This document shows positions 861 through 43,897 of a DNA stretch of 64,000 nucleotides, in pieces. The stretch spans positions 106,839-170,838 of the forward strand of contig CAYPLB010000001.1 in the NCBI GenBank assembly GCA_964411565.1, given 5' to 3'. Each line of letters opens with the position of its first letter. Within the stretch, counting starts at the first letter, position 1. Position numbers and translations under genes: made by a program. The notes under the pieces were generated by a model. That model ran no database searches, was not told the DNA's origin, and saw only the letters and a list, made by a program, of their open reading frames with translations. The stretch comes from Candidatus Woesearchaeota archaeon (lineage in GTDB: Archaea; Nanobdellota; Nanobdellia; SCGC-AAA011-G17; GW2011-AR17).

Positions 861-2357
861 ATGCTGATGAAGGACAAGCTTTGGAAGAATAGACATTTGA
901 TTCTTTTGTTAGTTATTCTAGTATTTGCTTTCTTTGTAAGGTTTGATTTTTTAACAGATTATTCTAATCAAGGATTATGGTATGATGAAGGAGAATATCT
1001 ATTGAGAGCAGAAAGTATAGCTTTTGATGGGTTGGAAGATCCCGAAGGAGTTGCTGAAAGAAGGCCAGTATTAATGCCTGCTCTTTGGAGTATTATTCTT
1101 TTGTTAGGTGGTGGTGAGTATGCCATAAAATTTTCTCAAGTCATACTCTCAGTGTTAGCAGTATTGTTTATTTATTTGTTAGGTAAAGAAGCACATAGTA
1201 AAAATTTAGGTTTGATTATGGCAGCATTGTTAGCAATATCATGGATACATATTTTCTTTTCAATTAGAATTGTGTTGGATCAAGCTGCATTGCTGTTTAG
1301 TATAATGGCTATGTATTTCTTTGTCAGATGTTGTAAAAAAAGTAATTGGAAAGATTCTGTGTTGACTGGAGTTTTTACTGCGTTGGCAGTTATGAGTTTT
1401 TATATTCCATTGTATTTAATTCCATTGTTTTTAGTTTATTTATTCTTCACAAAAAAGTTTAATATGTTTAAAGATAAGAATTTTTGGTATGGAGTTTTAG
1501 CTTTTATTTTAGCTTTAGCACCATGGTTGATTTGGTCTTATGTGGTTTATGGAGATCCTTTATTTGGTTTAAATCAGTATCATGGTACCGGACAAATTGA
1601 AGAAGGTTATGATTTTGGTATTTTAGGATTTTTTAGAGTTTTTCCTGCAGTTGCTTTGACAGGAATGATGATTTTCTTTTTGATAGGTTTAATAAAAAGT
1701 GTAGTTGATTTAGGTTTGTCTTTTGATTTAATTTGGAATAGGAAAACTAAAAAATTAGATCTAGATTTGTTGTTTTTTGGTTGGTTGTTAATTGTACCTA
1801 TAGCTTTAGGAATCGAAATTGTACACGTTGAACAAAGATATATGTTCCCAGCATTTATTGCTATGTTTTATTTTTTAGGTAAAGGTTTACTTTGGTTGAA
1901 GGATGTTATTGATAAAAATGTTGCTGAAAAAGCTAAAGAAGCAAAATATTTGTCTTTGATTTTGATTATATTGTTGTTAGTTTATTTCTCTTTTGTGCAA
2001 TTAGGTTATGCTGATGCTGTAATAGGTGGAAGTAGTTCTTCATTTCAACAACAAAGACAAGCTGGAGAATGGTTAAGTGAAAATATGGAACTAGAAGATA
2101 ATTTTGTTGCATGTAGTTATATTGTTGTGTACCAAGCTTATTCTGAAAGACAAGGTTATGCCTTTGGGACGAATGTTACTTTGATGGACAATGTTATTGA
2201 AAAATATGATCCTAAGTATTTAGTTGCAGATGCGTTTACACCTGATTGTGCATTTGAAGAAATTATTTCAAGAGAAGATCAGTTTGAACAAGTTGCTGTT
2301 TATTATTATGATGAAGCACAAACACAACCAATAGTAGTTATTTATGAAGTTGTTTAG
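861..2357 (+). CDS. polytopic membrane glycosyltransferase, GT-C fold (ArnT/PMT, GT39/83-like)
   Basis: 498 aa with many TM helices. The N-terminal region (RFDFLTDYSNQGLWYDEGEYLLRAESIAF) resembles the first periplasmic loop of ArnT/PMT_2 proteins. It lies divergent from a GT2 Dol-P-sugar synthase-like gene. Confidence 0.55.
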   Translation: MLMKDKLWKNRHLILLLVILVFAFFVRFDFLTDYSNQGLWYDEGEYLLRAESIAFDGLEDPEGVAERRPVLMPALWSIILLLGGGEYAIKFSQVILSVLAVLFIYLLGKEAHSKNLGLIMAALLAISWIHIFFSIRIVLDQAALLFSIMAMYFFVRCCKKSNWKDSVLTGVFTALAVMSFYIPLYLIPLFLVYLFFTKKFNMFKDKNFWYGVLAFILALAPWLIWSYVVYGDPLFGLNQYHGTGQIEEGYDFGILGFFRVFPAVALTGMMIFFLIGLIKSVVDLGLSFDLIWNRKTKKLDLDLLFFGWLLIVPIALGIEIVHVEQRYMFPAFIAMFYFLGKGLLWLKDVIDKNVAEKAKEAKYLSLILIILLLVYFSFVQLGYADAVIGGSSSSFQQQRQAGEWLSENMELEDNFVACSYIVVYQAYSERQGYAFGTNVTLMDNVIEKYDPKYLVADAFTPDCAFEEIISREDQFEQVAVYYYDEAQTQPIVVIYEVV

Positions 2358-3423
2358 TTAAAGCTTCTAAAGTTTTTTTTGCAGAATTTTTCCAAGTATA
2401 CTGTGAAGCATATTCTTTTAATTTAGGGAATTTTATTTTTTTGTCAAGAATGTTTTTCATGTTGAAAATGAATTCTGATTTTGAGTTTGCTAATAATCCA
2501 TTTGTTCTATGTTGAATAGATTCATTTAAACCTGCTGTGTTGAAAGAAACTGCTGGAGTGTTACAAGCGTTTGCCTCGATAACAGTTATTCCCCAACCTT
2601 CAGCACTAGAAGCTGAAGCATAAAGCCAAGATTTAGCATAAAGATTAAATTTTTCTTTCTCTGAAACTTTTCCTAAAACTTTGATTCTATTTTTTAGAGG
2701 AGAAACTTTAACTCTTTTTTTAATTTCTGGTAAGTATCTTCCTCCACCTGCAATTATTAATTCAGATTTAGGATAGTTTAGTTTCTCAAACATTTCAATA
2801 AGTAATTGTACTCTTTTGTATTTTTCAATTCTGCCAAGATAAAGAATTGTAGGATTTTTGAATTTAGTTTTAGGTTTGGCTTTTTTGTGATCAAAGCCAC
2901 AGTAACTTAAAGTAAAATTTTTTGATTTGAATCCAAGTTTTTCAAAACCTTTTTTTGTAGATTTACTTATTGCAACTAAAGGTGTGTTCCTGTATATGAT
3001 CGGCATTAAATAAACTTCAGCAAAGTAAGGCATCCATGCTAGATAAAATGGAAGTTCTTTGAAAACTACATCTTTGTGAACATGTAATAGGAGTAAGGCT
3101 TTTGGTTTGTTTGAAAATAAAGGTGTGAAATATGGAGTTCCATTTTCTACATCTAAAATGTAGTCTGTGTGTTTTTTGAATTTTTTTAAGTACAAGTATG
3201 GAAGAGTTATGTAGTTTGAAAATTTTCCTCCAGATCTGAAAACATGGCATCCATTTATTTTTTCATATTTTTTTGATCCTTTGAATCTTGGACAAAGAAA
3301 AATAACTCTATAACCTTCTTTGATCCAATGTTCTGCTTGGTTGAATGCATAAACAATTGATCCTCCAGCATATGGATGTTTAAGATCTTTCCATAAAAAA
3401 ACTGTGATTGTTTTTTGTTTCAT
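2338..3423 (-). CDS. GT4 family glycosyltransferase
   Basis: 361 aa. The C-terminal EGWGITVIEANACNTPAVSFNTAGLNESIQHRTNGLL matches the GT4 (GT-B) E-x7-E donor-binding motif. Confidence 0.8.
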   Translation of the reverse strand: MKQKTITVFLWKDLKHPYAGGSIVYAFNQAEHWIKEGYRVIFLCPRFKGSKKYEKINGCHVFRSGGKFSNYITLPYLYLKKFKKHTDYILDVENGTPYFTPLFSNKPKALLLLHVHKDVVFKELPFYLAWMPYFAEVYLMPIIYRNTPLVAISKSTKKGFEKLGFKSKNFTLSYCGFDHKKAKPKTKFKNPTILYLGRIEKYKRVQLLIEMFEKLNYPKSELIIAGGGRYLPEIKKRVKVSPLKNRIKVLGKVSEKEKFNLYAKSWLYASASSAEGWGITVIEANACNTPAVSFNTAGLNESIQHRTNGLLANSKSEFIFNMKNILDKKIKFPKLKEYASQYTWKNSAKKTLEALTKQLHK

Positions 3424-3523: not shown

Positions 3524-6500
3524 ATGTTTAAAAAAAGAGGAATACATGAATCGTTTTTGATAGTTTTAGTCGTAATTTTTACATTACTTTTTTTGTCCTT
3601 TGTTGTGGCAGAAAGTAATACTGAGTTTAGGATACATTATCTAGGTCCAGATAATGGAAGTTTCTTTGGACCTCAATTTGTAGAGGAACCTGCTTTTACA
3701 TTTAATGTTAATGGAACTAATGCTTCTTATAAAGTTAACTTGATTTTTAATGGTGGTCAAAATAATTCTGGTTTTGTTGATAATGGAACTTTAGGAAATT
3801 TAAGTTTGACTGCAAATATAGCTGACATGGCTGATGGATTTTATGTATATTATTTTAATGCTTCTAATGGTTCTGTTTCTAACTACACCGCTACAAACAG
3901 AACTCTTACTATTGATAATACTGTACCTCAAATTAGTTATGCTGCAATGGAACCTAATGAAGCTTTCATAACTAAGAATTCTTTCCTATTGAATATTTCA
4001 TATACAGAAACAAATCGAGCAAATATAACTTTTAGAATTAGGGATTCAGGAGATAATATTAATACAACAATAATTTCTGATGAAAGTGTTTCACATTTGA
4101 ATTTAACTAGTGTAACTGGTGAATCTGCTTATAGTGATGAAAATCTTACAATTAATGTAACTATATATGATAATGCAACAAACACTAATATTACATCAAA
4201 TAGAGTGGTTATTGTAGATACAACTATACCTCAAATAGAGTCACATACATCGTCAAGTATAATTAATAATAGTAATACTTCAAGTTCTTCAATTTTTGTT
4301 AATATGAGTTTTACTGAACAAAATTTTGGGAATTTAACATTTAAGTTTGCGCCAACTAGTTATGTAGTTATTAATACAACAGTAGTTTCAGAATGGTCTA
4401 CACCTTATTTGAATATAACTAGTGTAATTGGAGGTGCAGGATTAAGTGATGCAAATGTTACAATGAATGTTACAATTACAGATAGAGCAGGTAATACTAA
4501 CATTTCAACTTATGGGATGGTTTTAGATCAAACTCTGCCTACTTTTACATATGCAGGGGCTGTACAGCCTAATGCAACTTTCATAAATAATGATTATATT
4601 TATGTAAATGTGTCTGTTACAGAGGCAAATTTGATTAATTTATCTTTTAGTTTGTTAAATTCTACAGGAGCAATAAATTATTCTTTGTTGTCTGATACAA
4701 TAGGAGATGGTGCTGGATCAGCAATTAATTTTACACAAATGGATTCAAAAGCTGGGGCACTTCCAGAAGGAAACTATACTTTTAATGTAACTGCATCAGA
4801 TATAGCTGAGAATCAGAATACTTCAATAAATCAATTTATTGTTTTAGATAGGACATCTCCAACAACAGATTATCAGGCTGCAACAACAGTTGCTAATAAT
4901 AGTAATGTTTCAACAGATTATGCATTCTTTAACATGACTTTTACTGAACAAAATTTAGGTAACCTAACATTTGCTTTAAGTCCAACTGATTATACAAGTA
5001 CCAATAGTACAGTAGTTTCAGAATGGTCTACACCATATGTTAACTTTACAAGTTTAACTAGTGGTAATGCTTTACCTGATGGAAACTATACTTTTAATGT
5101 TACTATTATAGATAGAGCTTCAAATGTTGCAAATTCGGAGATTAGAACTTTCTTTTATGACCCAACATTACCAGTTGTAATGTATTCACATGGTTCTTCA
5201 GTTGCTGGGGATAGTGGGACAGCAGCTACATATATCTTTGTGAATACAACAATCACTGAAACCAATTTGATTAACTTAACTTTTAATCTGAGAAATGAAT
5301 CAGGTGCAGTTAATGCTACATTAATTTCAGATGCAATTGGTGATAGTAATTTGACATATGTTAACTTTACAAGTATGACTGAAGGTTTGGCATTGCCAGA
5401 AGGAAATTATACTTTTAATGTAACTGGAACAGATAGAATGGGTAATAAGAATACAAGTGTGAATGGAACTATTATCATTGATCAACAGTTCCCAAATCTT
5501 AGTTACCATGCAGATACACCAGCAAATAAAACTAATTTGACAAAGAACTCTATTTATGTAAAAGTTAATGTAACTGAGCAGAATTTAGCTAACATTAGTT
5601 TTGTTTTAGCAAATAGTTCCTTTGTGAATGAAACTTGGGTAACAGATACAAATGTAAGTTTTGTGAACTTCTCAAGATTAGGAGATGGTTACTATAAATT
5701 TAATGTAACAATTACAGATGTATCAAATCAAGTTAACTTTACAGCTACTAGGAATGTAACTGTTGATACAACTGCACCAGATGCAATAACAGTAAGTGCA
5801 TCGCCAAGTTCAGTTAATGGTGGAGAATCTGTAAGTTTATCTTGTGGAGCTACAGATAACTTAGGTGGAGATATTTCATATGTGATTGAAGTTCAGAAAC
5901 CGAGTGGTTCTTATGAAGTACAAACAAGTTCAGCAAGTGTGTCATATACAGATACAGCATCAGTTTCAGGAACTTATAATGTAAGATGTACAGCAACTGA
6001 TGTTTATGGAAATGCTGATGCAAGTAGTACTAGTTTTTCAGTTTCTATTGAAAGTGGAAGTTCAGGTGGTTCAAGTGGAGGAAGTAGTGCAAGTTATGCT
6101 CCAGAAGTAGAAGAAGAAGTTGAAGAAGAGGAAGAAGAAGTTGAAGTAGAGGAAGTTGAAGAAGAGATAACTGCAGCTGTTGTTTTAGAAGAAGAAAGTA
6201 GCTGGGAAGAAACAGGTGTTTTAGAATATGCTTCAGCTGTTGTAGGTGATGTAATTGAAATGACATTTACAACTAATGAAGGTGAAGAAGAAGGACACTC
6301 AGTAACTTTAAGTGAAGTAAATGTAGAAGAGCAGTTTGTAATCTTGGTCTTTGAAAGTGATCCTCAGGAATTAACTCTTTATGTAGGAGAAAGTAGAAAC
6401 TTGGATATAGATACAGATGGAAATGATGACTTCGAAGTAACTCTAAATACAATTAATGAAGATGGTACTGTTGATCTAACCTTTACAAAGCTAGAAGGAT

Positions 6501-6610
6501 GGCTTGAAAATGAAGGAGTAGAGCAAAAGTCTTACTGGTGGGTAGGATTAGTAGTAGCACTAGTAGTTGTAGCAGGAATTGTATGGTTTTTTGTTGCTAA
6601 AAAGAAGTAA
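3524..6610 (+). CDS. large secreted/anchored surface (S-layer-like) protein, extremely rich in N-glycosylation sequons
   Basis: 1028 aa with an N-terminal signal/TM segment. I hand-counted about 65 N-x-S/T sequons in about 750 aa, arranged as alternating repeated modules (FVNMSFTEQNFGNLTF... and FFNMTFTEQNLGNLTF...; YIYVNVSVTEANLINLSF... and YIFVNTTITETNLINLTF...). A Gly/Ser and Glu/Val-rich linker is followed by a C-terminal TM helix and KKK tail. Confidence 0.75.
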   Translation: MFKKRGIHESFLIVLVVIFTLLFLSFVVAESNTEFRIHYLGPDNGSFFGPQFVEEPAFTFNVNGTNASYKVNLIFNGGQNNSGFVDNGTLGNLSLTANIADMADGFYVYYFNASNGSVSNYTATNRTLTIDNTVPQISYAAMEPNEAFITKNSFLLNISYTETNRANITFRIRDSGDNINTTIISDESVSHLNLTSVTGESAYSDENLTINVTIYDNATNTNITSNRVVIVDTTIPQIESHTSSSIINNSNTSSSSIFVNMSFTEQNFGNLTFKFAPTSYVVINTTVVSEWSTPYLNITSVIGGAGLSDANVTMNVTITDRAGNTNISTYGMVLDQTLPTFTYAGAVQPNATFINNDYIYVNVSVTEANLINLSFSLLNSTGAINYSLLSDTIGDGAGSAINFTQMDSKAGALPEGNYTFNVTASDIAENQNTSINQFIVLDRTSPTTDYQAATTVANNSNVSTDYAFFNMTFTEQNLGNLTFALSPTDYTSTNSTVVSEWSTPYVNFTSLTSGNALPDGNYTFNVTIIDRASNVANSEIRTFFYDPTLPVVMYSHGSSVAGDSGTAATYIFVNTTITETNLINLTFNLRNESGAVNATLISDAIGDSNLTYVNFTSMTEGLALPEGNYTFNVTGTDRMGNKNTSVNGTIIIDQQFPNLSYHADTPANKTNLTKNSIYVKVNVTEQNLANISFVLANSSFVNETWVTDTNVSFVNFSRLGDGYYKFNVTITDVSNQVNFTATRNVTVDTTAPDAITVSASPSSVNGGESVSLSCGATDNLGGDISYVIEVQKPSGSYEVQTSSASVSYTDTASVSGTYNVRCTATDVYGNADASSTSFSVSIESGSSGGSSGGSSASYAPEVEEEVEEEEEEVEVEEVEEEITAAVVLEEESSWEETGVLEYASAVVGDVIEMTFTTNEGEEEGHSVTLSEVNVEEQFVILVFESDPQELTLYVGESRNLDIDTDGNDDFEVTLNTINEDGTVDLTFTKLEGWLENEGVEQKSYWWVGLVVALVVVAGIVWFFVAKKK

Positions 6611-6680: not shown

Positions 6681-7346
6681 ATGAGAGGAAAAATTTTATT
6701 ATTAGGCTTGTTATTGTTTAGCTTTACTTTTGTTTTAGCTGGTAATAGTTATGATGTAAGTTTTGAAGATCAAAATTCTCAAGCAATTTATCTTTATGAA
6801 AATGATGAAGTTAGGTTTGAGTTATTAGATGGTGAACATTCTATAATTGTTGAAGAAGTTTCTGAAATTGGAGCTAAATTTGATATTGTACCTTTTATTC
6901 ATGATGGAGTAACTAATGCTTGGCCAGGTATGGCAACTTTAGATACTATTATGAAAGTAGATTTAGATAAAGATGGTTATTATGATATGAATGTAGCTGT
7001 TTATTCTGTAGCTTCTGATGGTCAAGTACATTTAGTTTTGCAAGTTGCTGATAATAGTGATGATGATGATGATGGTAGTAGTATTGTTACAGGTTTAGTT
7101 GTGGATGATGAAGAAGAAGAGAGTGATATTGATTGGAAAAATTATATTTTAGCAGTTTTAGGTATTTTGATAGTTATAATAGTAGCAGTATTTGTTTTGA
7201 GAAGTGCTGATACTGAAGAAGAGAAGGAAGAAGCGAAAGAAGAAGAGAAAGAGGAAGTGAAGGAAGAAGCGAAAGAAGAAGAGAAGGAAGAAAATAGTGA
7301 TGATGATAAAAAAGATGATAGTGAAGAGAAAAAAGAGAAAGAATAA
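6681..7346 (+). CDS. secreted, membrane-anchored acidic protein with KEEEKEE-repeat cytoplasmic tail
   Basis: 221 aa with a signal peptide (MRGKILLLGLLLFSFTFVLAG). It has a DDDDDG/EEEE acidic stretch, one TM helix (ILAVLGILIVIIVAVFVL), and a tail of (E/K)-rich repeats encoded by a roughly 35-bp direct DNA repeat. Confidence 0.6.
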   Translation: MRGKILLLGLLLFSFTFVLAGNSYDVSFEDQNSQAIYLYENDEVRFELLDGEHSIIVEEVSEIGAKFDIVPFIHDGVTNAWPGMATLDTIMKVDLDKDGYYDMNVAVYSVASDGQVHLVLQVADNSDDDDDGSSIVTGLVVDDEEEESDIDWKNYILAVLGILIVIIVAVFVLRSADTEEEKEEAKEEEKEEVKEEAKEEEKEENSDDDKKDDSEEKKEKE

Positions 7347-7378: not shown

Positions 7379-7702
7379 ATGAAATGGTATGTGTTGCTTG
7401 TTATTGTACTTTTGTCAATTAGTTTTGTAAGTGCTGAGTTAATTATTAGTTGTGAAAGAGATGATACTTGTAATTTGTTTTTAGATGATTCTTGGTGTGA
7501 AGAAGATCTTTGTGTTGTTCCTCAAGTTGAGGAGGATTTAGAAGTGAGAGATGAGTTAAGAGATTATAATGAAGTTGAATGGGGAATGTTAGTTTTGGAA
7601 GAAAAAGAAGAATTTTTTTGTGAGAACTGTTTGAATTTTGCACCTGAGTATACTGGTAATTTATTTTATGATTTTATCTATTGGTTAATTTATGCTAAGT
7701 AA
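7379..7702 (+). CDS. small secreted Cys-rich protein
   Basis: 107 aa with signal peptide MKWYVLLVIVLLSISFVSA. The mature part is acidic and contains seven cysteines. Confidence 0.45.
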   Translation: MKWYVLLVIVLLSISFVSAELIISCERDDTCNLFLDDSWCEEDLCVVPQVEEDLEVRDELRDYNEVEWGMLVLEEKEEFFCENCLNFAPEYTGNLFYDFIYWLIYAK

Positions 7703-9148
7703 ACAAGCTTGACCTGAAATTGTTTTTTCTTGAAAATTACATGTTTGTGTTAAATAGGTGCAATCTTCATTTAGTGCAATTATTTCTAAGACATTTAATT
7801 CATTTAGTCCTTCTTCTAACTTCTCACAGTCTTCTGTAAAACCAATATTTGTAATTAAATCAATGTAATTTTTATCCTTTGACCAGTCAGACCAACCAGA
7901 AGCTGTATTTTTGTTTATTAAAGCTGCATAGGAATAATAAGCTTGTGGATATGAAGTTTCTATGGATTGGGATCCTAAAATTAAAAATTTTTCTTCAATA
8001 TCAGGCATAACTGCTAAGATGTCATATTCTGTTTGTGTGTAGTCTTGGAAGAAAGGAGTTAATAACATATTGTATGAGATTGCTGCAACTGTAGCTAAAG
8101 CTAGAATGATTAAAAGAGAAGTTTTTATTTTGTTTGATATTTTATTGTAATTTAATGATACTAGGAAGAATGATGTGAATAAAATTAAGAAATTAGTCCA
8201 TGGATCAGGATAAATTTCTTTGTATATTGGTATAAAAGTGATTATTCTTGTTAATACTAAGAAAGCTAGAGTTAATGTAGGTAGAAAGAAAAGAAAATCT
8301 TTTTTCTCTTTTTTATAGAAATAAAATAATGTTAATAGGGATATAGTTAAACCTGTTAGAATTAAATTACTAATTAGGAAACTGTTGAAGTCTAAAAGCC
8401 AGAGTCCAAATTCTTGGTCAATTAAATTGAGCTGTGTGTATGCTTGTAAAAATGGGATTAACCAGAATGAGGAAAGTATAATACCTAAGACTAAAGTGGA
8501 AATAATTTTTATGTTTTCTTTGAAATTTTTGGTTAGAATTAAACCTAGTAAGAAAGTTGAACCCAAAACTGTTTCTGGTTGATGAGAAATTATTAAAAAA
8601 GTATATAATGGTGCTAAGAAAAGGATTTTCCAGTCAATAGGATTGTCTTTGTAGTATAAAGCTAGATAGAAGATATATGTGAATACTACGAAAGCAGTTA
8701 GTTCTGGAAGTCTACCTTGTTTTAAAAATCCTCCAATAGCCATAGGGTTTGCAAAAATGAATAGGTATAATGCGGTAGTTTTGATCTTAGAAATTCTAAT
8801 GTGTTTTCCAATTAGATATATTGAAATGAATCCTAAAATGTAAAGTAAGATTATTGATAAGTAAGTAGAAAGCATTATGTTGTTTGTGAGATTTAATATT
8901 GGTAAAGTGAATAAAGCCCAACCTGGGGCAGATGCTTGAAATAGAATAAATCCATTGTACCAATTTGGAACATTGGCAAAAAGACCATATGCATCTAGAA
9001 AACTTAGTTGTGCAACATATGAAGCTAAATCATTTGTGTAGTCTAAAGGGAAATATTTGATTATTTTTGATGTGTCAATTAATCTGTAAATTAAGTTCAA
9101 ACTAAATAATATTATAGGAATAAGGAATATTTTATCTGATTTCTTCAT
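7685..9148 (-). CDS. polytopic membrane protein with C-terminal soluble domain (possible GT-C-type glycosyltransferase or envelope assembly protein)
   Basis: 487 aa with about 10 or more predicted TM helices, then a roughly 130-aa C-terminal hydrophilic Cys-containing domain. It has no WWDYG motif, so it is not called AglB. Confidence 0.5.
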   Translation of the reverse strand: MKKSDKIFLIPIILFSLNLIYRLIDTSKIIKYFPLDYTNDLASYVAQLSFLDAYGLFANVPNWYNGFILFQASAPGWALFTLPILNLTNNIMLSTYLSIILLYILGFISIYLIGKHIRISKIKTTALYLFIFANPMAIGGFLKQGRLPELTAFVVFTYIFYLALYYKDNPIDWKILFLAPLYTFLIISHQPETVLGSTFLLGLILTKNFKENIKIISTLVLGIILSSFWLIPFLQAYTQLNLIDQEFGLWLLDFNSFLISNLILTGLTISLLTLFYFYKKEKKDFLFFLPTLTLAFLVLTRIITFIPIYKEIYPDPWTNFLILFTSFFLVSLNYNKISNKIKTSLLIILALATVAAISYNMLLTPFFQDYTQTEYDILAVMPDIEEKFLILGSQSIETSYPQAYYSYAALINKNTASGWSDWSKDKNYIDLITNIGFTEDCEKLEEGLNELNVLEIIALNEDCTYLTQTCNFQEKTISGQACLLSIN

Positions 9149-9957: not shown

Positions 9958-10854
9958 ATGGATATTTTAAAGAAAATAGATATGTTTGTTGTAATTACTA
10001 TTCCTGCATATAATGAAGAGGAAACAATTCCTAGTGTTATAGAAGAAATTAAGTTAGTTATGAATAAAACTAAGTATAAATATAAAATCTTAGTTGTTGA
10101 TGATGGTAGTGTAGATAAAACTAGTGAGGTTTCTAAGAAAGCTGGAGCTATTGTTGTTAGAAAAAGACATAGTGGATTACTTGAAACTTTTAAAAGAGAA
10201 ATGAGTGAATGTTTGAAATTAAAAGCAGATATAATTGTACATACAGATGCTGATGGACAGTATCCTTCAGAATATATTCCACTTCTAATTGAAGAAATTG
10301 AGAAGGGAAATGATTTGGTTTTAGGAAGTAGGTTTAAAGGAGAAATTGAGTCAATGCCTTTTTTGAAATGGTTTGGTAATGTTGCTTTTGCAAAAGTGTT
10401 TACACAAATTTGTAAAACTGAAATTACTGATTCAACAACAGGATTTAGAGCTTTTAGAAGAGAAGTTGCAGAAGCGATAGAATATAATACTGATTTTACG
10501 TACACACAGGAACAATTGATTAAAGCTTCAAGGTTGAAGTTTAGAATAAAAGAAATTCCTATATATGCGAGAAAAACTCGAGAAAGTAGGTTGATGACAG
10601 GAGCATTTGATTATGCATTAAAAGCTTGGATAAATATTTTTAAAATATATAGAGATTATAAGCCTCTGGCATTTTTTGGGAAGATAGGAATTATGTTGTT
10701 GACTTTTGGGATGTTAATTGGTTTATACGTAGTTTATCATATTTTACAGTATGATGGGACTGGAGGGACTCCTAGGGTTGTTTTGTCAGCTTTATTGATA
10801 TTAACTGGTATGCAAATTGTGCTTTTTGGATTTATGGCAGATATGAAAAAATAA
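9958..10854 (+). CDS. GT2 dolichyl-phosphate-sugar synthase-like glycosyltransferase with C-terminal TM anchor
   Basis: 298 aa. It carries VVITIPAYNEEETI, VVDDGSVDKTSEV and HTDADGQY (DxD), plus two C-terminal TM helices. The architecture resembles archaeal AglJ/AglD or bacterial GtrB. Confidence 0.85.
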   Translation: MDILKKIDMFVVITIPAYNEEETIPSVIEEIKLVMNKTKYKYKILVVDDGSVDKTSEVSKKAGAIVVRKRHSGLLETFKREMSECLKLKADIIVHTDADGQYPSEYIPLLIEEIEKGNDLVLGSRFKGEIESMPFLKWFGNVAFAKVFTQICKTEITDSTTGFRAFRREVAEAIEYNTDFTYTQEQLIKASRLKFRIKEIPIYARKTRESRLMTGAFDYALKAWINIFKIYRDYKPLAFFGKIGIMLLTFGMLIGLYVVYHILQYDGTGGTPRVVLSALLILTGMQIVLFGFMADMKK

Positions 10855-11883: not shown

Positions 11884-12564
11884 ATGAGTAGTGAAGATTT
11901 TTATGGGAAAACATATGGAAAGGATTTTGATAAAAGTTTATATGATCTTCCTGAGATAAAGTTTAGAAGAAAGAAAGTTGTTCGTATGGTTGGAAGGAAT
12001 AAAAGAGTTTTAGATTTAGGTTGTTCTTTAGGAAATATCTCAAAAGGTTTGTTAGCAAATAGGAATGAAGTTTATGGGATAGATGTAGCAAAAGAATCTG
12101 TTGATTTCTGTAAGAAATTAGGAATTAAGGCAAAAGTACATAATGTAGAAGAAGGGAAGATGCCTTACAAAGATGATTTTTTTGATGTTGTTGTTTTTAG
12201 TGAAGTTGTTGAACATTTGTTTAACACAGATCATGCTATTAGAGAAATTTATAGAGTTTTGAAGAAAGGTGGATACTTAATTATTACAACTCCAAATATT
12301 GCAGCTCTGAATAGAAGGTTGAAATTATTTTTAGGTTTGAACCCTGGAATTGATTTAGGAATTGAGTCCAGTGGTGATGAGAGAGCAATTGGACATATTA
12401 GGTATTTTACTTTTGATAGTTTGAAGAAATTGTTGAGAAGGAATGGTTTGAGAGTTGTGCATATGTCAAGTGATGTTATTATGTTGAATAGATTGAGAAT
12501 GTATGAAATGGCGAAGATCTTTCCAAGGTTTGGTTATACTATTTATTTGAAAGCTCGGAAATGA
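11884..12564 (+). CDS. class I SAM-dependent methyltransferase
   Basis: 226 aa. Motif I VLDLGCSLGN plus FDVVVFSEVVEHL (motif II/III) support the call. Confidence 0.8.
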   Translation: MSSEDFYGKTYGKDFDKSLYDLPEIKFRRKKVVRMVGRNKRVLDLGCSLGNISKGLLANRNEVYGIDVAKESVDFCKKLGIKAKVHNVEEGKMPYKDDFFDVVVFSEVVEHLFNTDHAIREIYRVLKKGGYLIITTPNIAALNRRLKLFLGLNPGIDLGIESSGDERAIGHIRYFTFDSLKKLLRRNGLRVVHMSSDVIMLNRLRMYEMAKIFPRFGYTIYLKARK

Positions 12565-13612
12565 TCTCTAAGTTTTTGTTTACAAAATTTTTCCAAGTGA
12601 ATTTTTTGGATTGTTTAATTCCTTTTTTTGAAAGTTCTTTGGAATATTTTTTGTCTTTTATTATTTTAGTTATTTCTTTTGAAAGTTTTTTAAAGTCTTT
12701 CTCGTCGATAGTTATTCCTCCATTGCCAATTACTTCTGGTAGAGAAGATTTGTTTGAAGTAATTGTTGGAGTTCCACATGCCATTGATTCTAAAGGAGGT
12801 AATCCGAAACCTGCATAAGAACATAAGTAAATAGAAATGTCTGCAATGTTATAAAGATAGGATAAATCTTGTTCGGGGACATAATTAGTGAAAATAATGT
12901 CTTTTTGGAGGTTTAGTTTTTTAATTATTCTATTTAATTTTTTTCTCATTTCGGGGTAGTTTGACTTTCCTACTTTGATTAATTTTAAATTTGGTATTTC
13001 TCTTTGTGCAAGTTTGAATGCCTTTAGTAAAGTTAATAGATTCATTCTTGGTTCTTCATTTCCAACATAGATTAAATAATTATTTTCTTTAGGAAGATTG
13101 TATTTTTCTCTTATCTTTTTTAGATCTTTTATTGGTTTGTAGATATTATGGTCAACACCAATATGAGCAACTGTGATTTTTTCTTTTGGATATTTTAAAT
13201 GTTTTACAATTTCATCTTTTGTGAATTGTGAGATTGCAATTATATGATCTGCTTTGCACATTCCTCTGTAGGCAAACTTTGCTTTTATTTTTTGAAACTT
13301 TGTTCCATAAGGAAGTACTAAAGGTATAATATCATAACATAAAACAAGGGATTTTTTGAATTTAAAGAAGTTTAAGATATGTGCGTCAGCTTGTGAAAGT
13401 ATGTATGAAATAGAGTTTTTCCTTCTTTTTTTTATTGTGGATAAAGGTGCATCTGTTAGGAAATCAAGGAAATTAAGGATTCTATTTTTTGGTTTGTAAG
13501 AAATTATTCTTTTGTTAATATTCTTAGGAAGACCTTTTAGCAATTCTAACTTACATCTGTTCATACCAAAAATTTCTTTTGTATGTCTACCAAAGTATAA
13601 ATCTAGTTTCAT
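12539..13612 (-). CDS. GT4 family glycosyltransferase
   Basis: 357 aa. AGFGLPPLESMACGTPTITSNKSSLPEVIGNGG matches the GT4 E-x7-E region. Confidence 0.8.
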   Translation of the reverse strand: MKLDLYFGRHTKEIFGMNRCKLELLKGLPKNINKRIISYKPKNRILNFLDFLTDAPLSTIKKRRKNSISYILSQADAHILNFFKFKKSLVLCYDIIPLVLPYGTKFQKIKAKFAYRGMCKADHIIAISQFTKDEIVKHLKYPKEKITVAHIGVDHNIYKPIKDLKKIREKYNLPKENNYLIYVGNEEPRMNLLTLLKAFKLAQREIPNLKLIKVGKSNYPEMRKKLNRIIKKLNLQKDIIFTNYVPEQDLSYLYNIADISIYLCSYAGFGLPPLESMACGTPTITSNKSSLPEVIGNGGITIDEKDFKKLSKEITKIIKDKKYSKELSKKGIKQSKKFTWKNFVNKNLEIISELSNK

Positions 13613-16748: not shown

Positions 16749-18437
16749 ATGTCTTTAAATAAGGAATTAAAGAAACTTATCTTATTATATTTAGCATTTG
16801 TTTTGGGGAAGGTTGTATTAGGGTTTTTTATTAGTTCTCCGAGTGCCTTAGGTGATGAGTATCTTTATTCAAAAATAGCTAGAAATCTCTTTGAATATAG
16901 TTCTAGCTTGTATCATGGAGATGTTTTAGCTCATAAGTATCTTCCTTTGTATCCTTTGTTTTTATCAATAGGATATCTATTTTCAAACATGGAAGTTGTA
17001 TACTTTGTAATGAAAGTAGTTAATGCATTTCTTTCATCAGCTATTATTTTTCCAGTTTATTATTTAGCAAGAGAATTTTTAGAATCAAGGAAAGCTTTTG
17101 TCGGAGCATTTTTAGTTTCAATATTTGTAGCAAATTTTAATGTATTTGCATATTTAATGTCAGAGAATTTATTCTATCCTTTGTTTATGTTATTTGTATT
17201 TTTAGTTTATTTTGCTTTTAAAACAGATAATAAATGGTTGTTTTTAATCTCTGGAATAGTTTTAGCTTTAGCTTATTGGGTTAGAGTTTTAGCTTTAGTT
17301 CTGATTCCAGTAGTTTTTGTGGTTTGGTTATTTAGAAGGACTAAATTTGTGAACCTAATTTGGCATTATGGCTTTGCTTTGCTCTGTGTGATCCCAATCT
17401 TTTTTAGAAATGTTGGAACTTATGGAGGGTCAGCAATGGCAGTGACTGGAGGTTATGGTGGTCCATTAGCTTTTATGGGTAACTTTATGACAAATCCTTT
17501 AGGATTTTTTAATTGGATTGCTTTATACTTTGCTTATGCATTGATTGCTACAGGATTTATTTTTGGATTTTATTTCTTGCTTGGATTGAAAGTTAAAGAT
17601 AAGGATTTTAAATTATTGTATATGATTACAGGAATTAGTTTTATTGTCAATGTTTTAGTTATTGCAAATCAAGCAAATGGAAGTGATTTATTGTATAATT
17701 CACCTTTCTTTCCTTTGTTTTCAAATAGACCTATAGGTCGATATTTTGATATGACTTTGTCCTTAGTTTTGTTAGTAGGGTATATTTCTTTTGAAAAATT
17801 TGAGTTTAAAGAGAAATTTATTAAATTTGCAATTGGATTTAGTTCATTGATTTTGTTGTTAGGTACACAGCTGACAATTGCAGCTTTATTTCCTTTCAAT
17901 AATATGGCATTATCTTTGTTGGGTGTGTTAGATTTATTTTTAGAATGGTTATTTTATGGTTCAATCTTTTTAGAGTTTACTTGGTTGCCTTTCATTATTA
18001 TTGCTTGTATATTATTTATTATTCCGTATACTCTTTTATTGTTTAGAAAAAATAAGAATTTAGTGTTTTATTTAGGTGCTGGGTTTATTGTTCTTACTAC
18101 AGTAGTTAGTTTCTGTTTGATTTCATTTAATGCTGCACATTATTGGGGAGATTCTGATCAAGCAGAGTTAGGTCATTGGTTCAATGAAAATGTGGAAGGA
18201 AATGTTTTGTTGGATGAAAGATTTGTCTCAGATAAATTGACTAAGTATACTTTGAATGAAGAATTGTTTAATGTAAGGAATGAATGGTCATTGTTTGGGT
18301 TTTGGGTTAATGAAGAAATTAGAGTTGGAAGTCCATATAATATTGAAGGATTTGATTATTTAGTTTCTATGGATGAAAACTTAGGTTATGATATTATAAA
18401 GAAAGAAGGAGACTTTATTTTGTATGAGTTAAAATGA
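16749..18437 (+). CDS. polytopic membrane glycosyltransferase, GT-C fold (ArnT/PMT-like)
   Basis: 562 aa with about 12 or more TM helices. The N-terminal loop YLYSKIARNLFEYSSSLYHGDVLAHKYLPLYPLF resembles the ArnT/PMT_2 family. It is a paralog of the 861 and 44315 genes. Confidence 0.6.
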   Translation: MSLNKELKKLILLYLAFVLGKVVLGFFISSPSALGDEYLYSKIARNLFEYSSSLYHGDVLAHKYLPLYPLFLSIGYLFSNMEVVYFVMKVVNAFLSSAIIFPVYYLAREFLESRKAFVGAFLVSIFVANFNVFAYLMSENLFYPLFMLFVFLVYFAFKTDNKWLFLISGIVLALAYWVRVLALVLIPVVFVVWLFRRTKFVNLIWHYGFALLCVIPIFFRNVGTYGGSAMAVTGGYGGPLAFMGNFMTNPLGFFNWIALYFAYALIATGFIFGFYFLLGLKVKDKDFKLLYMITGISFIVNVLVIANQANGSDLLYNSPFFPLFSNRPIGRYFDMTLSLVLLVGYISFEKFEFKEKFIKFAIGFSSLILLLGTQLTIAALFPFNNMALSLLGVLDLFLEWLFYGSIFLEFTWLPFIIIACILFIIPYTLLLFRKNKNLVFYLGAGFIVLTTVVSFCLISFNAAHYWGDSDQAELGHWFNENVEGNVLLDERFVSDKLTKYTLNEELFNVRNEWSLFGFWVNEEIRVGSPYNIEGFDYLVSMDENLGYDIIKKEGDFILYELK

Positions 18438-19543
18438 AAAAAGTTTTGTTTATTTTAGAAGATTTTTATCCTATGAAAGGAGCTCCTGCAGTAAGGATTA
18501 ATTCTTTTATTAAAAAATTTAAAGATTGTAAAGTTGAAGTTCTTGGTGGTTCAAGCGAAAAGGTTTACAAGAGAGGATGGTATATAATACATAGGCCTTC
18601 AGAAAGTAAGTTGTTTTCATTTATTTGGTTTTTAATAAAAATGAATGTAAAAGCTGTTTATTTAACTTTAATAAAAAGGTATGATCTTGTTGTTGTTTCT
18701 ATTCCTAAATATGAAGTTTTGTTGAGTTTTCCTTTAATTAAATTGTTGAGTAAGAAGACTGTTTTGGATATTAGAGATTCGTTTGAATTTTTGAGATATG
18801 ATTCTTATTTTAAACATTTTTTTCCAAGGGTAGTGGCAGAAGGTTTGGGTGCTTTTGTAAAAAATTATTTTGTGAGAGGATTTTTGAATGTAAGTTTTAA
18901 ATTAGCAGATTTGATTACTGTGGCAAATAGAGGTATTAAAAATTCTCTTTCAGGGTTAGATAATGTTTATGTTGTTTCTAATGGGGTAGATGTAGACTTG
19001 TTTAGGCCTAAAAATAAAATGAAAAAATCAAATTTACAATTAATTTATGTTGGTAATTATTCTGAAAAAGATAGATTTCATTGGATTCTAAATGTAGTCC
19101 CCAAATTTAATGTAACTTTGAATTTAGTTGGGAATGGTAGATGTAAAGGAAAAATTTTGAAAAAATTCAAGGAAAGAGATGTTGATTATGTTGATCATGG
19201 ATTTGTAAAACATGAAGATATGCCTAGAATTTTATCTTCAATGGATCTAGGTTTTATATTTAGAGATGCTGAAATTAATGAATCAATTCCTGTATCTGTT
19301 TATGAGTTTTGTGCAATGAATATTCCTACATTAATAAATGATGTTGGTATTATGTCTAAGTTTGTTAAAGAAAATAATTTAGGATTTGTTTTGAGAAGTC
19401 AAGAAGATTTTCAAGTATTAATGAAGAACTTTGTAATAAATCGAGGTGAATTGAGTAAATTTTCTAATTTACATACTTTAGCTGTTGATAATTTTTCTAG
19501 GAAAAAAGAAGCTGAGAAATTTAGAAATCTAGTTTTAAGTTAG
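18434..19543 (+). CDS. GT4-like glycosyltransferase
   Basis: 369 aa. It overlaps the upstream stop by 4 nt. The C-terminal region ESIPVSVYEFCAMNIPTLINDVG is GT-B/GT4-like. Confidence 0.6.
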   Translation: MKKVLFILEDFYPMKGAPAVRINSFIKKFKDCKVEVLGGSSEKVYKRGWYIIHRPSESKLFSFIWFLIKMNVKAVYLTLIKRYDLVVVSIPKYEVLLSFPLIKLLSKKTVLDIRDSFEFLRYDSYFKHFFPRVVAEGLGAFVKNYFVRGFLNVSFKLADLITVANRGIKNSLSGLDNVYVVSNGVDVDLFRPKNKMKKSNLQLIYVGNYSEKDRFHWILNVVPKFNVTLNLVGNGRCKGKILKKFKERDVDYVDHGFVKHEDMPRILSSMDLGFIFRDAEINESIPVSVYEFCAMNIPTLINDVGIMSKFVKENNLGFVLRSQEDFQVLMKNFVINRGELSKFSNLHTLAVDNFSRKKEAEKFRNLVLS

Positions 19544-40698: not shown

Positions 40699-41411
40699 GT
40701 TAAAAATACTTGTTTTGATATGTCTTCTTTTTTTAGGAATACATGTATTGTTTTTGCAATCCAGTATATATTGTAAGAGAATGCATAGAATAAAATGTAG
40801 TACTCTGGAATTCCAATTAATATAGAGATAAATAACATTTCAATTGAATAATCGATAAGCATTATTTTTCTTGATATTGAGTAAATATTGTGTAGTTTTC
40901 CTTGTTTTTTTGGTTTATCATCAGTAATTTTCTTTTGGTAAATGAACATCTCTTTTAATGGGATTAATTCTTTCATGATAAATCCAATTAGGAAAAAACT
41001 CATAGCTATAATTATCCAAGTTTTACCTGTGTTTAGAAAATATGAAATAGCTAAGAAAGTTTGTGGTAAAATTGCCATGGACCATGATCCAATGAAATCT
41101 ATAATTGCTCCTTTCTTACTGAATTGTTTTTTGTATCTAGCTAATGAACCATCTACCATGTCTAATTGTAAACAAAGTAAAATAATTGCACTTGCGATTA
41201 TGTGTACTGAAAAGTTGTAGATCAAGAAAAAAGGTGATGTAATTAAAACTAGTAAAACCCAAAACATTGTTAATTGGTTTGGAGTTATTTTAGTGTGAAG
41301 TAAAGTCCAAAGAAAATAAGGAGAGAAAATTCTAAGATGAGTTTCTGTTTTTCTGTTTTTGAATTTCCAAGCGAACTTATTTAATTCTTTTATTGATGGA
41401 ACTTTTTTCAT
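40695..41411 (-). CDS. CDP-alcohol phosphatidyltransferase family protein
   Basis: 238 aa and multi-TM. DMVDGSLARYKKQFSKKGAIIDFIG is the D-G-x2-A-R-x8-G-x3-D signature (the last Asp position is degenerate). Confidence 0.7.
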   Translation of the reverse strand: MKKVPSIKELNKFAWKFKNRKTETHLRIFSPYFLWTLLHTKITPNQLTMFWVLLVLITSPFFLIYNFSVHIIASAIILLCLQLDMVDGSLARYKKQFSKKGAIIDFIGSWSMAILPQTFLAISYFLNTGKTWIIIAMSFFLIGFIMKELIPLKEMFIYQKKITDDKPKKQGKLHNIYSISRKIMLIDYSIEMLFISILIGIPEYYILFYAFSYNIYWIAKTIHVFLKKEDISKQVFLT

Positions 41412-42136: not shown

Positions 42137-42184
42137 TTAGACTATTTTCTTAAAGATTATTTATAAATTTTTGGGATCTATAGT

Positions 42185-43896: not shown

Positions 43897-43897
43897 A

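What the first reader, a model, noticed from the sequence alone, without database searches (positions are those of the whole stretch)
3524..6610. Giant surface protein with about 65 N-glycosylation sequons in alternating repeat modules, next to the glycosylation machinery
About 65 N-x-S/T sequons (hand count) sit in about 750 residues. They are organised as at least two families of roughly 100-aa repeats (FxNMxFTEQNxGNLTF... and YIxVNxxxTExNLINLxF...), each ending in an NYTFNVT-type block. An acidic E/V-rich linker and a C-terminal TM anchor follow. This looks like the principal glycosylated envelope protein that the surrounding GT2/GT4/GT-C genes decorate. The repeat families are not obviously related to known S-layer domains.
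Basis: seen in the sequence. Interest (0 to 1): 0.6.

Follow-up and report, generated by a model that had tools for sequence, protein, structure and literature searches.

The report
Sequon-packed Ig-rod surface protein, DPANN archaeon
This gene encodes a membrane-anchored rod of eight antibody-like domains from a tiny marine archaeon, carrying 66 conserved sugar-attachment motifs; it is a real and unusually dense example of a surface-protein class already described in these archaea.

Summary
ORF 3524-6610 (+, 1028 aa) has 66 N-x-S/T sequons, all within residues 44-746. Shuffling predicts 24±4 (z≈10), and no other ORF in the window is enriched. The two "repeat families" are alternating subtypes of one ~105-aa domain present in seven copies. 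This domain matches Pfam Big_13, and its closest solved fold is the Ig-like repeat of the Salmonella adhesin SiiE. So the claim that the repeats resemble nothing known is wrong. The enrichment is not compositional: it is directional, it excludes proline, and about eight sites per domain stay at fixed positions in distant homologues. Sequons are also kept preferentially between orthologues (85% against 62-66% overall identity). Most lie inside β-strands. A sequon-free PKD-like domain follows, then an acidic linker, a small β-sandwich module, a transmembrane helix and KKK. That module occurs in over 5,000 protein clusters and has no Pfam model. The glycosyltransferase neighbourhood is real, but it is shared only with the close orthologue, and no AglB is encoded in the window. 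Most likely this is a heavily N-glycosylated envelope rod of a marine DPANN archaeon. Whether it is the principal envelope protein cannot be told. It is a new member of a known kind.

The parts
3524..3610 (+). Predicted N-terminal signal peptide, aa 1-29: MFKKRG..., a hydrophobic core, then VVA|ES
   Evidence: The sequence shows a basic n-region, an 18-residue hydrophobic stretch and a small-residue V-V-A site. No dedicated signal-peptide predictor was available, so the cleavage site is inferred.
3614..3925 (+). Unit 1, aa 31-134: the most divergent Ig-like unit, with 10 sequons
   Evidence: It is 16-20% identical to the other units, but chunk-BLAST E-values reach 1e-17.
3926..5776 (+). Units 2-7, aa 135-751: six Big_13-type Ig-like domains with 8-12 sequons each. 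U3/U5 are the A subtype and U4/U6 the B subtype.
   Evidence: Pfam Big_13 scores 81 bits in 7 stretches. The AF2 model of aa 446-656 has pLDDT 80.5 and shows two β-sandwich domains. The best solved fold is SiiE. Sequon positions are conserved across 56 units from distant homologues.
5777..6058 (+). Unit 8, aa 752-845: a PKD-like Ig domain with two Cys (774, 822) and no sequons
   Evidence: It gives a weak Pfam PKD hit at aa 755-835 and is 19-22% identical to units 2-7. It has 0 sequons. The same Cys-containing domain precedes the linker in many family members.
6059..6196 (+). Gly/Ser linker followed by an E/V-rich acidic linker, aa 846-891
   Evidence: Read directly from the sequence. The DNA shows GAA-rich tandem repeats at 6103-6166.
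6197..6517 (+). Membrane-proximal β-sandwich module, aa 892-998, with a conserved His and the motifs PQExTLxVGE and DxDxDGxxD
   Evidence: Alignment A2. The AF2 model has pLDDT 78 and 8 strands. A profile search finds 5367 cluster representatives at E<=1e-3. No Pfam family covers it. There is a weak fold match to the Methanosarcina S-layer DUF1608 domain (E 0.02, TM 0.54).
6533..6607 (+). C-terminal transmembrane helix (aa ~1004-1025) and KKK tail
   Evidence: A hydropathy scan places a hydrophobic segment starting near aa 1002. The same TM-plus-basic-tail ending occurs in 40 of 40 sampled proteins that carry the module.
6681..7346 (+). Co-directional small paralogue: signal peptide, the same β-sandwich module, an acidic linker, a TM helix and an EK-rich tail
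   Evidence: Pairwise BLASTP gives E 2e-4 and an iterated profile gives E 2e-10. A gene sits at the same position next to the 67% orthologue.
7379..7702 (+). Co-directional small secreted acidic protein, 107 aa, function unknown
   Evidence: It has an N-terminal hydrophobic segment and no Pfam hit. A 107-aa gene sits at the same position in the orthologue locus.
861..2357 (+). GT-C glycosyltransferase of PMT_2 type with about 10 TM helices
   Evidence: Pfam PMT_2 E 4e-19 and PMT E 9e-8. TM count.
2338..3423 (-). GT4 glycosyltransferase, transcribed divergently from the surface-protein gene
   Evidence: Pfam Glycos_transf_1 E 2.8e-30.
7685..9148 (-). Polytopic membrane protein of the PTPS_related family, GT-C-like
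   Evidence: Pfam PF10131 E 2.9e-19. It has at least 6 hydrophobic segments.
9958..10854 (+). GT2 with two C-terminal TM helices, the architecture of a polyprenyl-phosphate sugar synthase
   Evidence: Pfam Glycos_transf_2 E 8.8e-21. TM segments start at aa 236 and 271. The functional assignment is an inference from the architecture.
12539..13612 (-). Second GT4 glycosyltransferase
   Evidence: Pfam Glycos_transf_1 E 3.1e-38.
16749..19543 (+). A second PMT_2-type GT-C (16749-18437) and a third GT4 (18434-19543)
39211..51640 (.). Distal part of the glycan island: Wzx-like flippase 39211-40698, third PMT_2 GT-C 44315-45886, GT2 45873-46598 (-), GT2 48045-48767, GDP-mannose 4,6-dehydratase 50594-51640

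Best explanation
The gene encodes a type I membrane-anchored surface glycoprotein of a marine DPANN archaeon. The closest genome-collection relatives are MAGs from Saanich Inlet and from the Black Sea at 150 m. The proposed mechanism has five steps. (1) Sec export and removal of a 29-residue signal peptide; this is inferred. (2) The ectodomain is a string of eight Ig-like β-sandwich domains. It would be roughly 25-35 nm long if extended like the homologous SiiE rod; the length is inferred. (3) The seven distal domains each carry 8-12 N-x-S/T sequons at conserved positions in most of the predicted β-strands. The Asn and Ser/Thr would point outward and a mostly hydrophobic middle residue inward. 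The positions are shown; the side-chain orientation is inferred from strand geometry. (4) An AglB-type oligosaccharyltransferase encoded elsewhere in the genome would load these sites before the domains fold. This would sheathe the rod in glycan whose mass could equal or exceed that of the 108-kDa polypeptide; this step is inferred. The glycan would be built by the surrounding ~50-kb island of GT2, GT4, GT-C, flippase and sugar-nucleotide genes. (5) The sequon-free PKD-like domain, the acidic linker and a widely shared β-sandwich module form the membrane-proximal stalk, and a C-terminal TM helix with a KKK tail holds it in the membrane. The likely role is a glycan-coated envelope (glycocalyx-type) component that spaces and shields the cell surface.
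For: Sequon excess: 66 observed against 24±4 expected, unique within the window. Family-wide sequon grammar typical of oligosaccharyltransferase recognition: NxS/T 2068, [ST]xN 817, N[ST] 707, NxxS/T 671. Pro at X is 16 against 63 expected, and Pro at +3 is 6 against 62 expected, with no Pro depletion in the reverse motif. 53% of all Asn lie in sequons. Positional conservation: eight HMM columns hold a sequon Asn in 55-95% of 56 units from distant homologues. Purifying selection on the sequon: at 62-66% identity, 85-86% of sequons persist. Sequon Asn is kept at 0.90-0.91 against 0.58-0.68 for other Asn, sequon S/T at 0.91-0.92 against 0.60-0.76, and the X residue only at 0.54-0.62. Structure: AF2 pLDDT 80.5 with two Ig-like domains; 15 of 18 sequons lie in strands, and X is hydrophobic in 68% against a 40% background. 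Fold and sequence homology to SiiE Ig-like rods and to Pfam Big_13. Topology: an N-terminal hydrophobic signal and a C-terminal TM helix with a basic tail, the latter shared by 40 of 40 sampled proteins carrying the module. Archaeal context: TFIIB and ribosomal protein S8e upstream, and homologues labelled as DPANN. Glycan island, syntenic in the 67% orthologue. Literature: AglB is almost universal in Archaea (PMC11407970). Cultivated DPANN have putative surface proteins with Ig-like folds, 13-52 N-glycosylation sites and a C-terminal TM helix (bioRxiv 10.1101/2023.10.27.564410).
Against: There is no direct evidence of glycosylation, surface location or expression. No AglB/STT3 gene and no WWDxG motif occur in the 64-kb window or in the flanking loci I hold, so the transferase is assumed. 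Linkage to glycosyltransferases is absent around distant family members, so the island may serve general glycan synthesis. Signal-peptide cleavage was not predicted with a dedicated tool. Pro depletion could partly reflect the location of sequons in β-strands, although the reverse motif shows no such depletion.
Confidence: 0.7

Rival explanations
1. It is the principal lattice-forming S-layer protein of the cell: the Ig domains tile into a 2-D paracrystalline array anchored by the C-terminal helix.
For: Archaeal S-layer proteins are commonly chains of Ig-like domains, N-glycosylated and C-terminally anchored (PMC10903991; bioRxiv 10.1101/2023.10.27.564410). The C-terminal module has a weak fold match to the Methanosarcina S-layer DUF1608 domain. 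The protein is acidic (pI 4.05). No second sequon-rich protein is present in this window.
Against: No curated S-layer family matches. In SlaA, lattice contacts run through unglycosylated surfaces, whereas here sequons sit on most predicted strands of each distal domain, which leaves little bare surface. The closest solved fold is an extended adhesin rod. The same repeat serves as a stalk under lectin-like or β-helix domains in paralogous proteins, and one strain lacks a whole domain pair, which is easier to tolerate in a spacer than in a lattice. No abundance data exist.
Confidence: 0.2
2. It is an adhesin or host-contact fibre of an episymbiotic DPANN cell: the glycan-coated rod projects from the surface to bind a host cell or particles, like bacterial Ig-repeat adhesins.
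For: The fold and sequence are homologous to SiiE and to the extender of a large adhesion protein. Family members carry ConA/LamG-like or β-helix domains on the same stalk. Surface proteins of DPANN are thought to mediate symbiosis.
Against: This protein has no distinct ligand-binding head; its N-terminal unit is only a divergent, equally sequon-laden Ig domain. It has no RTX or type I secretion features. A dense glycan coat would mask protein-protein binding surfaces, although the glycans themselves could be the ligand.
Confidence: 0.2
3. The N-x-S/T pattern is a structural or compositional by-product (polar Asn/Thr ladders on β-strands in an AT-rich genome) and the protein is largely unglycosylated.
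For: The genome is 27-31% GC and the protein is rich in Asn (10.6%), Thr and Ser. The sequons lie in β-strands, where alternating polar and apolar residues are expected.
Against: Shuffling controls for composition and still gives z≈10. The structurally equivalent reverse motif [ST]-x-N is not enriched and shows no Pro exclusion. Other Asn-rich ORFs in the window show no excess. The homologous eighth domain has none. Selection acts on the Asn and Ser/Thr but not on X.
Confidence: 0.05
4. The main modification is made by the adjacent PMT_2-type GT-C enzymes. They would either O-glycosylate the abundant Ser/Thr or attach glycans to Asn independently of AglB.
For: Three PMT_2 GT-C genes and one PTPS_related GT-C-like gene lie in the island, one of them next but one upstream of the gene, beyond the GT4. 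That arrangement is kept in the orthologue. The protein is 23% Ser+Thr. An AglB-independent N-glycosylation route exists in Haloferax volcanii (PMC11407970). No AglB is in the window.
Against: The selected unit is the full directional sequon with Asn, which points to an STT3-type enzyme. Ser/Thr outside sequons are not preferentially conserved. From my own knowledge, PMT-like GT-C enzymes in archaeal N-glycosylation, such as AglS in Haloferax, extend glycans already on the protein rather than starting them.
Confidence: 0.08

Closest known systems
[quoted passage not shown] MJ1_0299, MJ1_0309, MJ1_0707, MJ1_0076; bioRxiv 10.1101/2023.10.27.564410)
   Same: They are DPANN proteins of about 1000 aa with a signal peptide, 4-8 predicted Ig-like folds, many predicted N-glycosylation sites (13-52) and a C-terminal TM helix, and they have no homology to classical S-layer families.
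   Different: The sequon count here is higher (66), the source is a marine water-column lineage rather than a thermoacidophile, and the per-domain positional conservation of about 8 sequons is not described there.
Sulfolobus acidocaldarius S-layer proteins SlaA and SlaB (PMC10903991)
   Same: They are archaeal envelope proteins built of β-sandwich domains and heavily N-glycosylated, with glycan shields modelled. SlaB has a C-terminal TM anchor.
   Different: SlaA has 31 sequons in 1424 aa (about 2.2 per 100 aa), against 6.4 per 100 aa overall here and about 9 per 100 aa in the repeats. I detected no sequence homology. SlaA leaves bare surfaces for lattice contacts, whereas here most predicted strands carry a sequon.
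Bacterial giant Ig-repeat adhesins: Salmonella SiiE (PDB 2yn3/2yn5) and the extender region of a large adhesion protein (6xi3); Pfam Big_13
   Same: They have the same domain fold and detectable sequence homology (Foldseek E 2e-10 at 21-22% identity, phmmer E 3.5e-5, Big_13 81 bits). The tandem domains form a rod and share conserved Asp residues at the domain ends.
   Different: Those are bacterial, secreted by type I systems and not N-glycosylated. This protein is archaeal, has a Sec-type signal and a C-terminal TM anchor, and its domains carry 8-12 conserved sequons each.
Haloferax volcanii S-layer glycoprotein (csg) and other PGF-CTERM/archaeosortase substrates
   Same: It is a chain of Ig-like domains, N-glycosylated through AglB, with a C-terminal hydrophobic segment and a basic tail (my own knowledge of the family).
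   Different: There is no PGF motif before the helix (sequence ...EQKSYWWVGLVV...) and no NCBIfam PGF-CTERM hit, so lipid anchoring by an archaeosortase is not indicated.
Methanosarcina acetivorans S-layer protein MA0829, DUF1608 domain (PDB 3u2g)
   Same: It is the best solved-structure match of the membrane-proximal β-sandwich module.
   Different: The match is weak (E 0.02, TM 0.54, 16% identity) and covers only part of DUF1608. No Pfam DUF1608 hit was obtained.

Membership tests
Pfam Big_13 (PF19077) bacterial Ig-like domain | Whole-protein score above the curated gathering threshold of 27 bits | tested here: met
   81.2 bits, E 8.8e-23, 7 matched stretches.
Pfam Big_13 (PF19077) bacterial Ig-like domain | Ig-like β-sandwich fold arranged in tandem | tested here: met
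   The AF2 di-domain model has pLDDT 80.5 and is all-β. The top solved-structure matches are SiiE Ig-like domains.
AglB-dependent archaeal N-glycoprotein | N-x-S/T sequons (x not Pro) on an exported polypeptide | tested here: met
   There are 66 sequons, with directional enrichment, Pro exclusion and preferential conservation. N-terminal signal-like and C-terminal TM segments are present.
AglB-dependent archaeal N-glycoprotein | An AglB/STT3 oligosaccharyltransferase in the same genome | tested here: inconclusive
   No STT3 Pfam hit came from the ORFs scanned, which include all those long enough to be AglB. No WWDxG motif occurs in any frame of the window or of loci L001-L008. The rest of the genome (contig up to 395 kb) could not be read.
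AglB-dependent archaeal N-glycoprotein | Glycan covalently attached to the sequon Asn | not testable with these tools
   This requires glycoproteomics.
Archaeal S-layer protein (functional class) | Forms a 2-D paracrystalline lattice and is among the most abundant proteins of the cell | not testable with these tools
   No expression, proteome or imaging data are available for this uncultivated lineage.
Archaeal S-layer protein (functional class) | Homology to a curated S-layer family (e.g. S_layer_N/C, DUF1608, halobacterial csg) | tested here: not met
   No such family appears in Pfam or NCBIfam at E<=1. The only link is a weak fold match of the C-terminal module to DUF1608.
PGF-CTERM / archaeosortase-processed surface protein | A PGF tripeptide immediately before the C-terminal helix and basic tail, with a TIGR04126-type match | tested here: not met
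   The C-terminus reads EQKSYWWVGLVVALVVVAGIVWFFVAKKK with no PGF, and there is no NCBIfam hit.
Type I-secreted giant RTX/Ig-repeat adhesins (SiiE/LapA type) | Tandem Ig-like domains forming the bulk of the protein | tested here: met
Type I-secreted giant RTX/Ig-repeat adhesins (SiiE/LapA type) | C-terminal T1SS signal or RTX repeats, no N-terminal Sec signal, bacterial host | tested here: not met
   The context is archaeal. The protein has an N-terminal signal-like segment and a C-terminal TM anchor. There is no significant RTX or Ca_tandemer match (NF033510 at E 0.35).
DPANN Ig-fold, sequon-rich, C-terminally anchored surface proteins (descriptive class, Nanobdella preprint) | Signal peptide, multiple Ig-like folds, many sequons, a C-terminal TM helix, DPANN origin | tested here: met
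   Direct homology to the Nanobdella proteins was not tested.

The most novel reading that the evidence does not exclude
In DPANN archaea the Big_13 Ig-like domain may have become a dedicated glycan-display scaffold. Its best-conserved residues are about eight N-glycosylation sites per 100-aa domain, spread over most of the predicted β-strands. If so, the functional outer surface of these marine nano-sized cells would be a dense N-glycan brush held on protein rods, not a protein lattice. The rods would be anchored through a very widespread (>5000 clusters) and uncurated membrane-proximal module. Some of the glycan load might be installed by the co-located PMT_2-type GT-C enzymes rather than by AglB alone.
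Probability: 0.25. Interest if true: 0.6.

Novelty: new member of a known kind. Interest (0 to 1): 0.38.

Why it matters
DPANN archaea are tiny, mostly uncultivated and often live attached to other cells, so their surface molecules are central to how they survive and find hosts. This protein and its family show that a large share of their surface proteome consists of Ig-like rods in which the glycosylation motif itself is the conserved feature. The sequon density is about three times that of the 'highly glycosylated' Sulfolobus SlaA. The closest relatives come from marine water columns (Saanich Inlet, Black Sea), which does not fit the idea that dense S-layer glycosylation is mainly a thermophile trait. 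The family offers a defined target for glycoproteomics in enrichment cultures, and a compact, repetitive substrate for studying archaeal oligosaccharyltransferase site selection. The uncurated C-terminal anchor module could serve as a marker for finding DPANN surface proteins in metagenomes. None of this changes current concepts: it extends a class already described from a cultivated DPANN archaeon.

Tried and rejected
1. Whole-protein self-BLAST returned only the identity hit, so I switched to chunked BLAST.
2. TRF found no DNA-level tandem repeat for the Ig units. It found only GAA-rich linkers, so the domain duplications are old.
3. tRNA and Rfam scans of the window were empty.
4. A word-indexed search with the C-terminal module alone found nothing. 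I replaced it with a local jackhmmer run and the exhaustive profile search.
5. The last word-indexed search, using the di-domain profile, returned only 12 short fragments and added little on taxonomic range.
7. A search for AglB through Pfam STT3 and the WWDxG motif was negative in the window and in all held loci.
8. I rejected a composition artefact.
9. I rejected a PGF-CTERM/archaeosortase anchor, because there is no motif and no NCBIfam hit.
10. I considered a class III (pilin-like) signal because of the KRG motif at residues 4-6. I did not pursue it, because the hydrophobic segment ends in a typical V-V-A site and no predictor was available.
11. I considered that the two repeat types are unrelated families and rejected it (31-51% identity, one HMM).


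Full report

ORF 3524..6610 (+) encodes 1028 aa. It contains 66 N-[^P]-[ST] sequons, all between residues 44 and 746. Shuffling the same residues gives 24.3±4.1, with a maximum of 40 in 5000 trials. The reversed motif occurs 23 times. I ran the same test on all 62 ORFs of at least 100 aa in the window. Only this one stands out: 6.4 sequons per 100 aa at z≈10, while every other ORF has |z|<=2, including ORFs with comparable Asn content. The identical protein is encoded on 19 contigs from several JGI and ENA samples, so it is not an assembly artefact.

**2. Repeat anatomy**

Chunked BLAST and a D-x-T-x-P junction motif delimit seven ~105-aa units at aa 31-134, 135-235, 236-338, 339-445, 446-549, 550-656 and 657-751. 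They carry 8-12 sequons each. An eighth, more distant unit (aa 752-845) carries none.

U3/U5 are 51% identical and U4/U6 47%, forming an A/B super-repeat.
- All of U2-U7 nonetheless belong to one family (31-51% identity, one HMM).
- One orthologue (P0003) lacks exactly aa 239-448, which is one A/B pair. Copy number therefore varies in two-domain steps.
- No DNA-level tandem repeat remains for these units, so the duplications are old.

**3. What the repeats are**

In fact they score 81 bits on Pfam Big_13 (cut-off 27) in seven stretches. They also hit the Ig-like domains of the Salmonella adhesin SiiE by sequence (E 3.5e-5).

An AlphaFold2 model of U5-U6 was built on an alignment of 32 di-domains from the family. 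It has mean pLDDT 80.5 and shows two all-β Ig-like domains. Its best solved-structure matches are SiiE (E 2e-10, 21-22% identity) and the extender of another large adhesion protein, followed by FN3 tandems. The eighth unit is a weak PKD match with two Cys.

**4. Why the sequons are not a composition effect**

- *Sequon grammar.* Across 27 non-redundant family proteins, NxS/T occurs 2068 times. [ST]xN occurs 817 times, N[ST] 707 and NxxS/T 671. Pro at the X position is 16 against 63 expected, and Pro at +3 is 6 against 62 expected. The reverse motif shows no Pro depletion. 53% of all Asn lie in sequons.
- *Positional conservation.* In 56 full-length units from homologues other than the two close orthologues, eight HMM columns hold a sequon Asn in 55-95% of units. 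These columns, with a few Asp, Tyr and Arg positions, are the most conserved in the domain.
- *Selection between orthologues.* At 62-66% identity, 85-86% of sequons persist. Sequon Asn is kept at 0.90-0.91 against 0.58-0.68 for other Asn. Sequon Ser/Thr stays Ser/Thr at 0.91-0.92 against 0.60-0.76 for the rest. The X residue is kept only at the background level of 0.54-0.62.
- *Placement on the fold.* In the model, 15 of 18 sequons lie in β-strands. X is hydrophobic in 68% of cases against a 40% background. This fits Asn and Ser/Thr on the solvent face and X in the core, with most of the predicted strands carrying a site. The orientation is inferred, because model coordinates could not be inspected.

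**5. The rest of the protein**

The N-terminus reads MFKKRG, then an 18-residue hydrophobic core, then VVA|ES, which looks like a Sec signal peptide; the cleavage site is inferred. After the eighth domain come a Gly/Ser linker and an E/V-rich linker (aa 846-891). A ~107-aa module follows (aa 892-998), then a hydrophobic helix (aa ~1004-1025) and KKK. The last 277 residues carry no sequon.

The module folds as an 8-strand β-sandwich (pLDDT 78), and no Pfam model covers it. Its only notable solved-structure match is weak: the Methanosarcina S-layer DUF1608 domain (E 0.02, TM 0.54).

A profile of the module finds 5367 cluster representatives at E<=1e-3, of which 2672 are at E<=1e-10. In 40 of 40 sampled proteins it is followed by a C-terminal TM helix, and in 39 of 40 by a basic tail. 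Most of these proteins are sequon-enriched as well (median 5.2 per 100 aa, median z 5.5). Where sources give names, they say 'archaeon', Aenigmarchaeota, Nanoarchaeota, Pacearchaeota or Woesearchaeota.

The next gene downstream, 6681-7346, encodes a signal peptide, the same module, an acidic linker, a TM helix and an EK-rich tail. It is a stalk-only paralogue.

**6. Organism and neighbourhood**

Upstream genes encode ribosomal protein S8e and TFIIB. The closest genome-collection relatives are a Saanich Inlet MAG and a Black Sea 150 m 'Nanoarchaeota' MAG. This points to a DPANN archaeon of anoxic marine water columns.

The window is a large glycan island. It holds:

- three PMT_2-type GT-C genes and a PTPS_related GT-C-like protein;
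- three GT4 genes and three GT2 genes (a fourth GT2 lies just upstream of the window), one GT2 having C-terminal TM helices like polyprenyl-phosphate sugar synthases;
- a Wzx-like flippase, a GDP-mannose 4,6-dehydratase, nucleotidyltransferases, methyltransferases and B12-binding radical SAM enzymes.

The local gene order is kept around the 67% orthologue. Two distant family members, however, sit among housekeeping genes. The linkage is therefore a feature of this lineage and not of the family. No STT3/AglB hit and no WWDxG motif is present in the window or in any locus I hold. The transferase must be encoded elsewhere, which is plausible because AglB is almost universal in Archaea (PMC11407970).

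**7. Most likely mechanism**

The protein is exported through Sec and retained by its C-terminal helix. Its seven distal Ig-like domains would be N-glycosylated at most of their 66 sites before folding. The result would be a glycan-sheathed rod standing on a sequon-free stalk (PKD-like domain, acidic linker and β-sandwich module).

- *Shown:* domain architecture, fold family, sequon statistics, conservation and gene context.
- *Inferred:* actual glycosylation, the enzyme responsible, the rod length (about 25-35 nm, by analogy with SiiE) and the biological role.

I rate the general model at 0.7. Two narrower readings remain open at about 0.2 each: the principal lattice-forming S-layer protein, and a host-contact adhesin. 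Several points argue against a classical lattice. Sequons cover most predicted strands, whereas SlaA uses unglycosylated surfaces for lattice contacts (PMC10903991). The same repeat serves as a stalk under other domains in paralogues. A whole domain pair is dispensable in one strain. The lack of any distinct head domain argues against a specific adhesin.

**8. Comparison with what is known, and novelty**

A preprint on the cultivated DPANN Nanobdella aerobiophila describes putative surface proteins with 4-8 Ig-like folds, 13-52 predicted N-glycosylation sites and a C-terminal TM helix (10.1101/2023.10.27.564410). Glycosylated S-layer proteins are also reported for Micrarchaeota. So the kind is known.

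Three things are added here. First, the sequon load is extreme: 6.4 per 100 aa overall and about 9 per 100 aa in the repeats, against about 2.2 per 100 aa for SlaA. Second, about eight sites per Big_13 domain are positionally conserved across the family and are under selection. Third, the C-terminal anchor module is very widespread and has no curated model.

The protein itself carries no name in public sources. I class it as a new member of a known kind, of moderate interest.

Noticed in passing
window 6681-7346 (+): A 221-aa protein made of a signal peptide, the same β-sandwich module as aa 892-998 of the big protein, an acidic linker, a TM helix and an EK-rich tail. The tail is encoded by a 36-nt DNA tandem repeat at 7215-7292. 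It is a 'stalk-only' paralogue, and a gene sits at the same position next to the 67% orthologue.
   Followed up: partly
window 6197-6517 (+) and proteins P0031-P0175: The membrane-proximal module defines a very large family with no Pfam model: 5367 cluster representatives at E<=1e-3. It almost always lies just before a C-terminal TM helix and a basic tail, in sequon-rich archaeal proteins of 150-1600 aa.
   Followed up: partly
window 7379-7702 (+): A small (107 aa) secreted, acidic, Cys-containing protein with no family match. It is co-directional with the two surface-protein genes, and a 107-aa gene sits at the same position in the orthologue locus.
   Followed up: no
window 53143-57075 (+): A 1310-aa ORF containing an intein with a LAGLIDADG homing endonuclease (Intein_splicing E 5e-45). 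The host protein was not identified.
   Followed up: no
window 10935-11846 (+): A nucleotidyltransferase (Polbeta/NTP_transf_2 with an HTH) and a 133-aa partner, resembling a toxin-antitoxin pair, sit inside the glycosyltransferase cluster. In the orthologue locus this position holds two small ORFs on the opposite strand instead.
   Followed up: no
window 13654-15489 (-): A 611-aa Ser/Thr protein kinase with one TM segment lies inside the glycan island. It is absent from the corresponding place in the orthologue locus, where the GT4 is followed directly by the PMT_2 gene.
   Followed up: no
window 20557-21972 (-), 35779-37146 (+), 42595-43896 (+), 37362-38324 (+): Unusual lipid or glycan-modification genes in the island: a methyltransferase fused to a CDP-alcohol phosphatidyltransferase, two B12-binding radical SAM enzymes, and an LPG_synthase_TM protein.
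   Followed up: no
window 3479-3486: A TATA-like TTTATAAA lies about 40 nt upstream of the ATG, in the 100-nt divergent intergenic region shared with the GT4 gene. It is a candidate archaeal promoter. The orthologue's over-extended gene call suggests that this region is conserved.
   Followed up: no
protein P0003 / locus L008 (Black Sea MAG): This orthologue lacks exactly one A/B pair of Ig-like domains (aa 239-448 of the window protein), which shows strain-level length variation of the rod in two-domain steps.
   Followed up: partly
window 9954-10505 (-): A 183-aa GTG-start ORF lies entirely antisense to the GT2 gene 9958-10854. It is most likely spurious.
   Followed up: no
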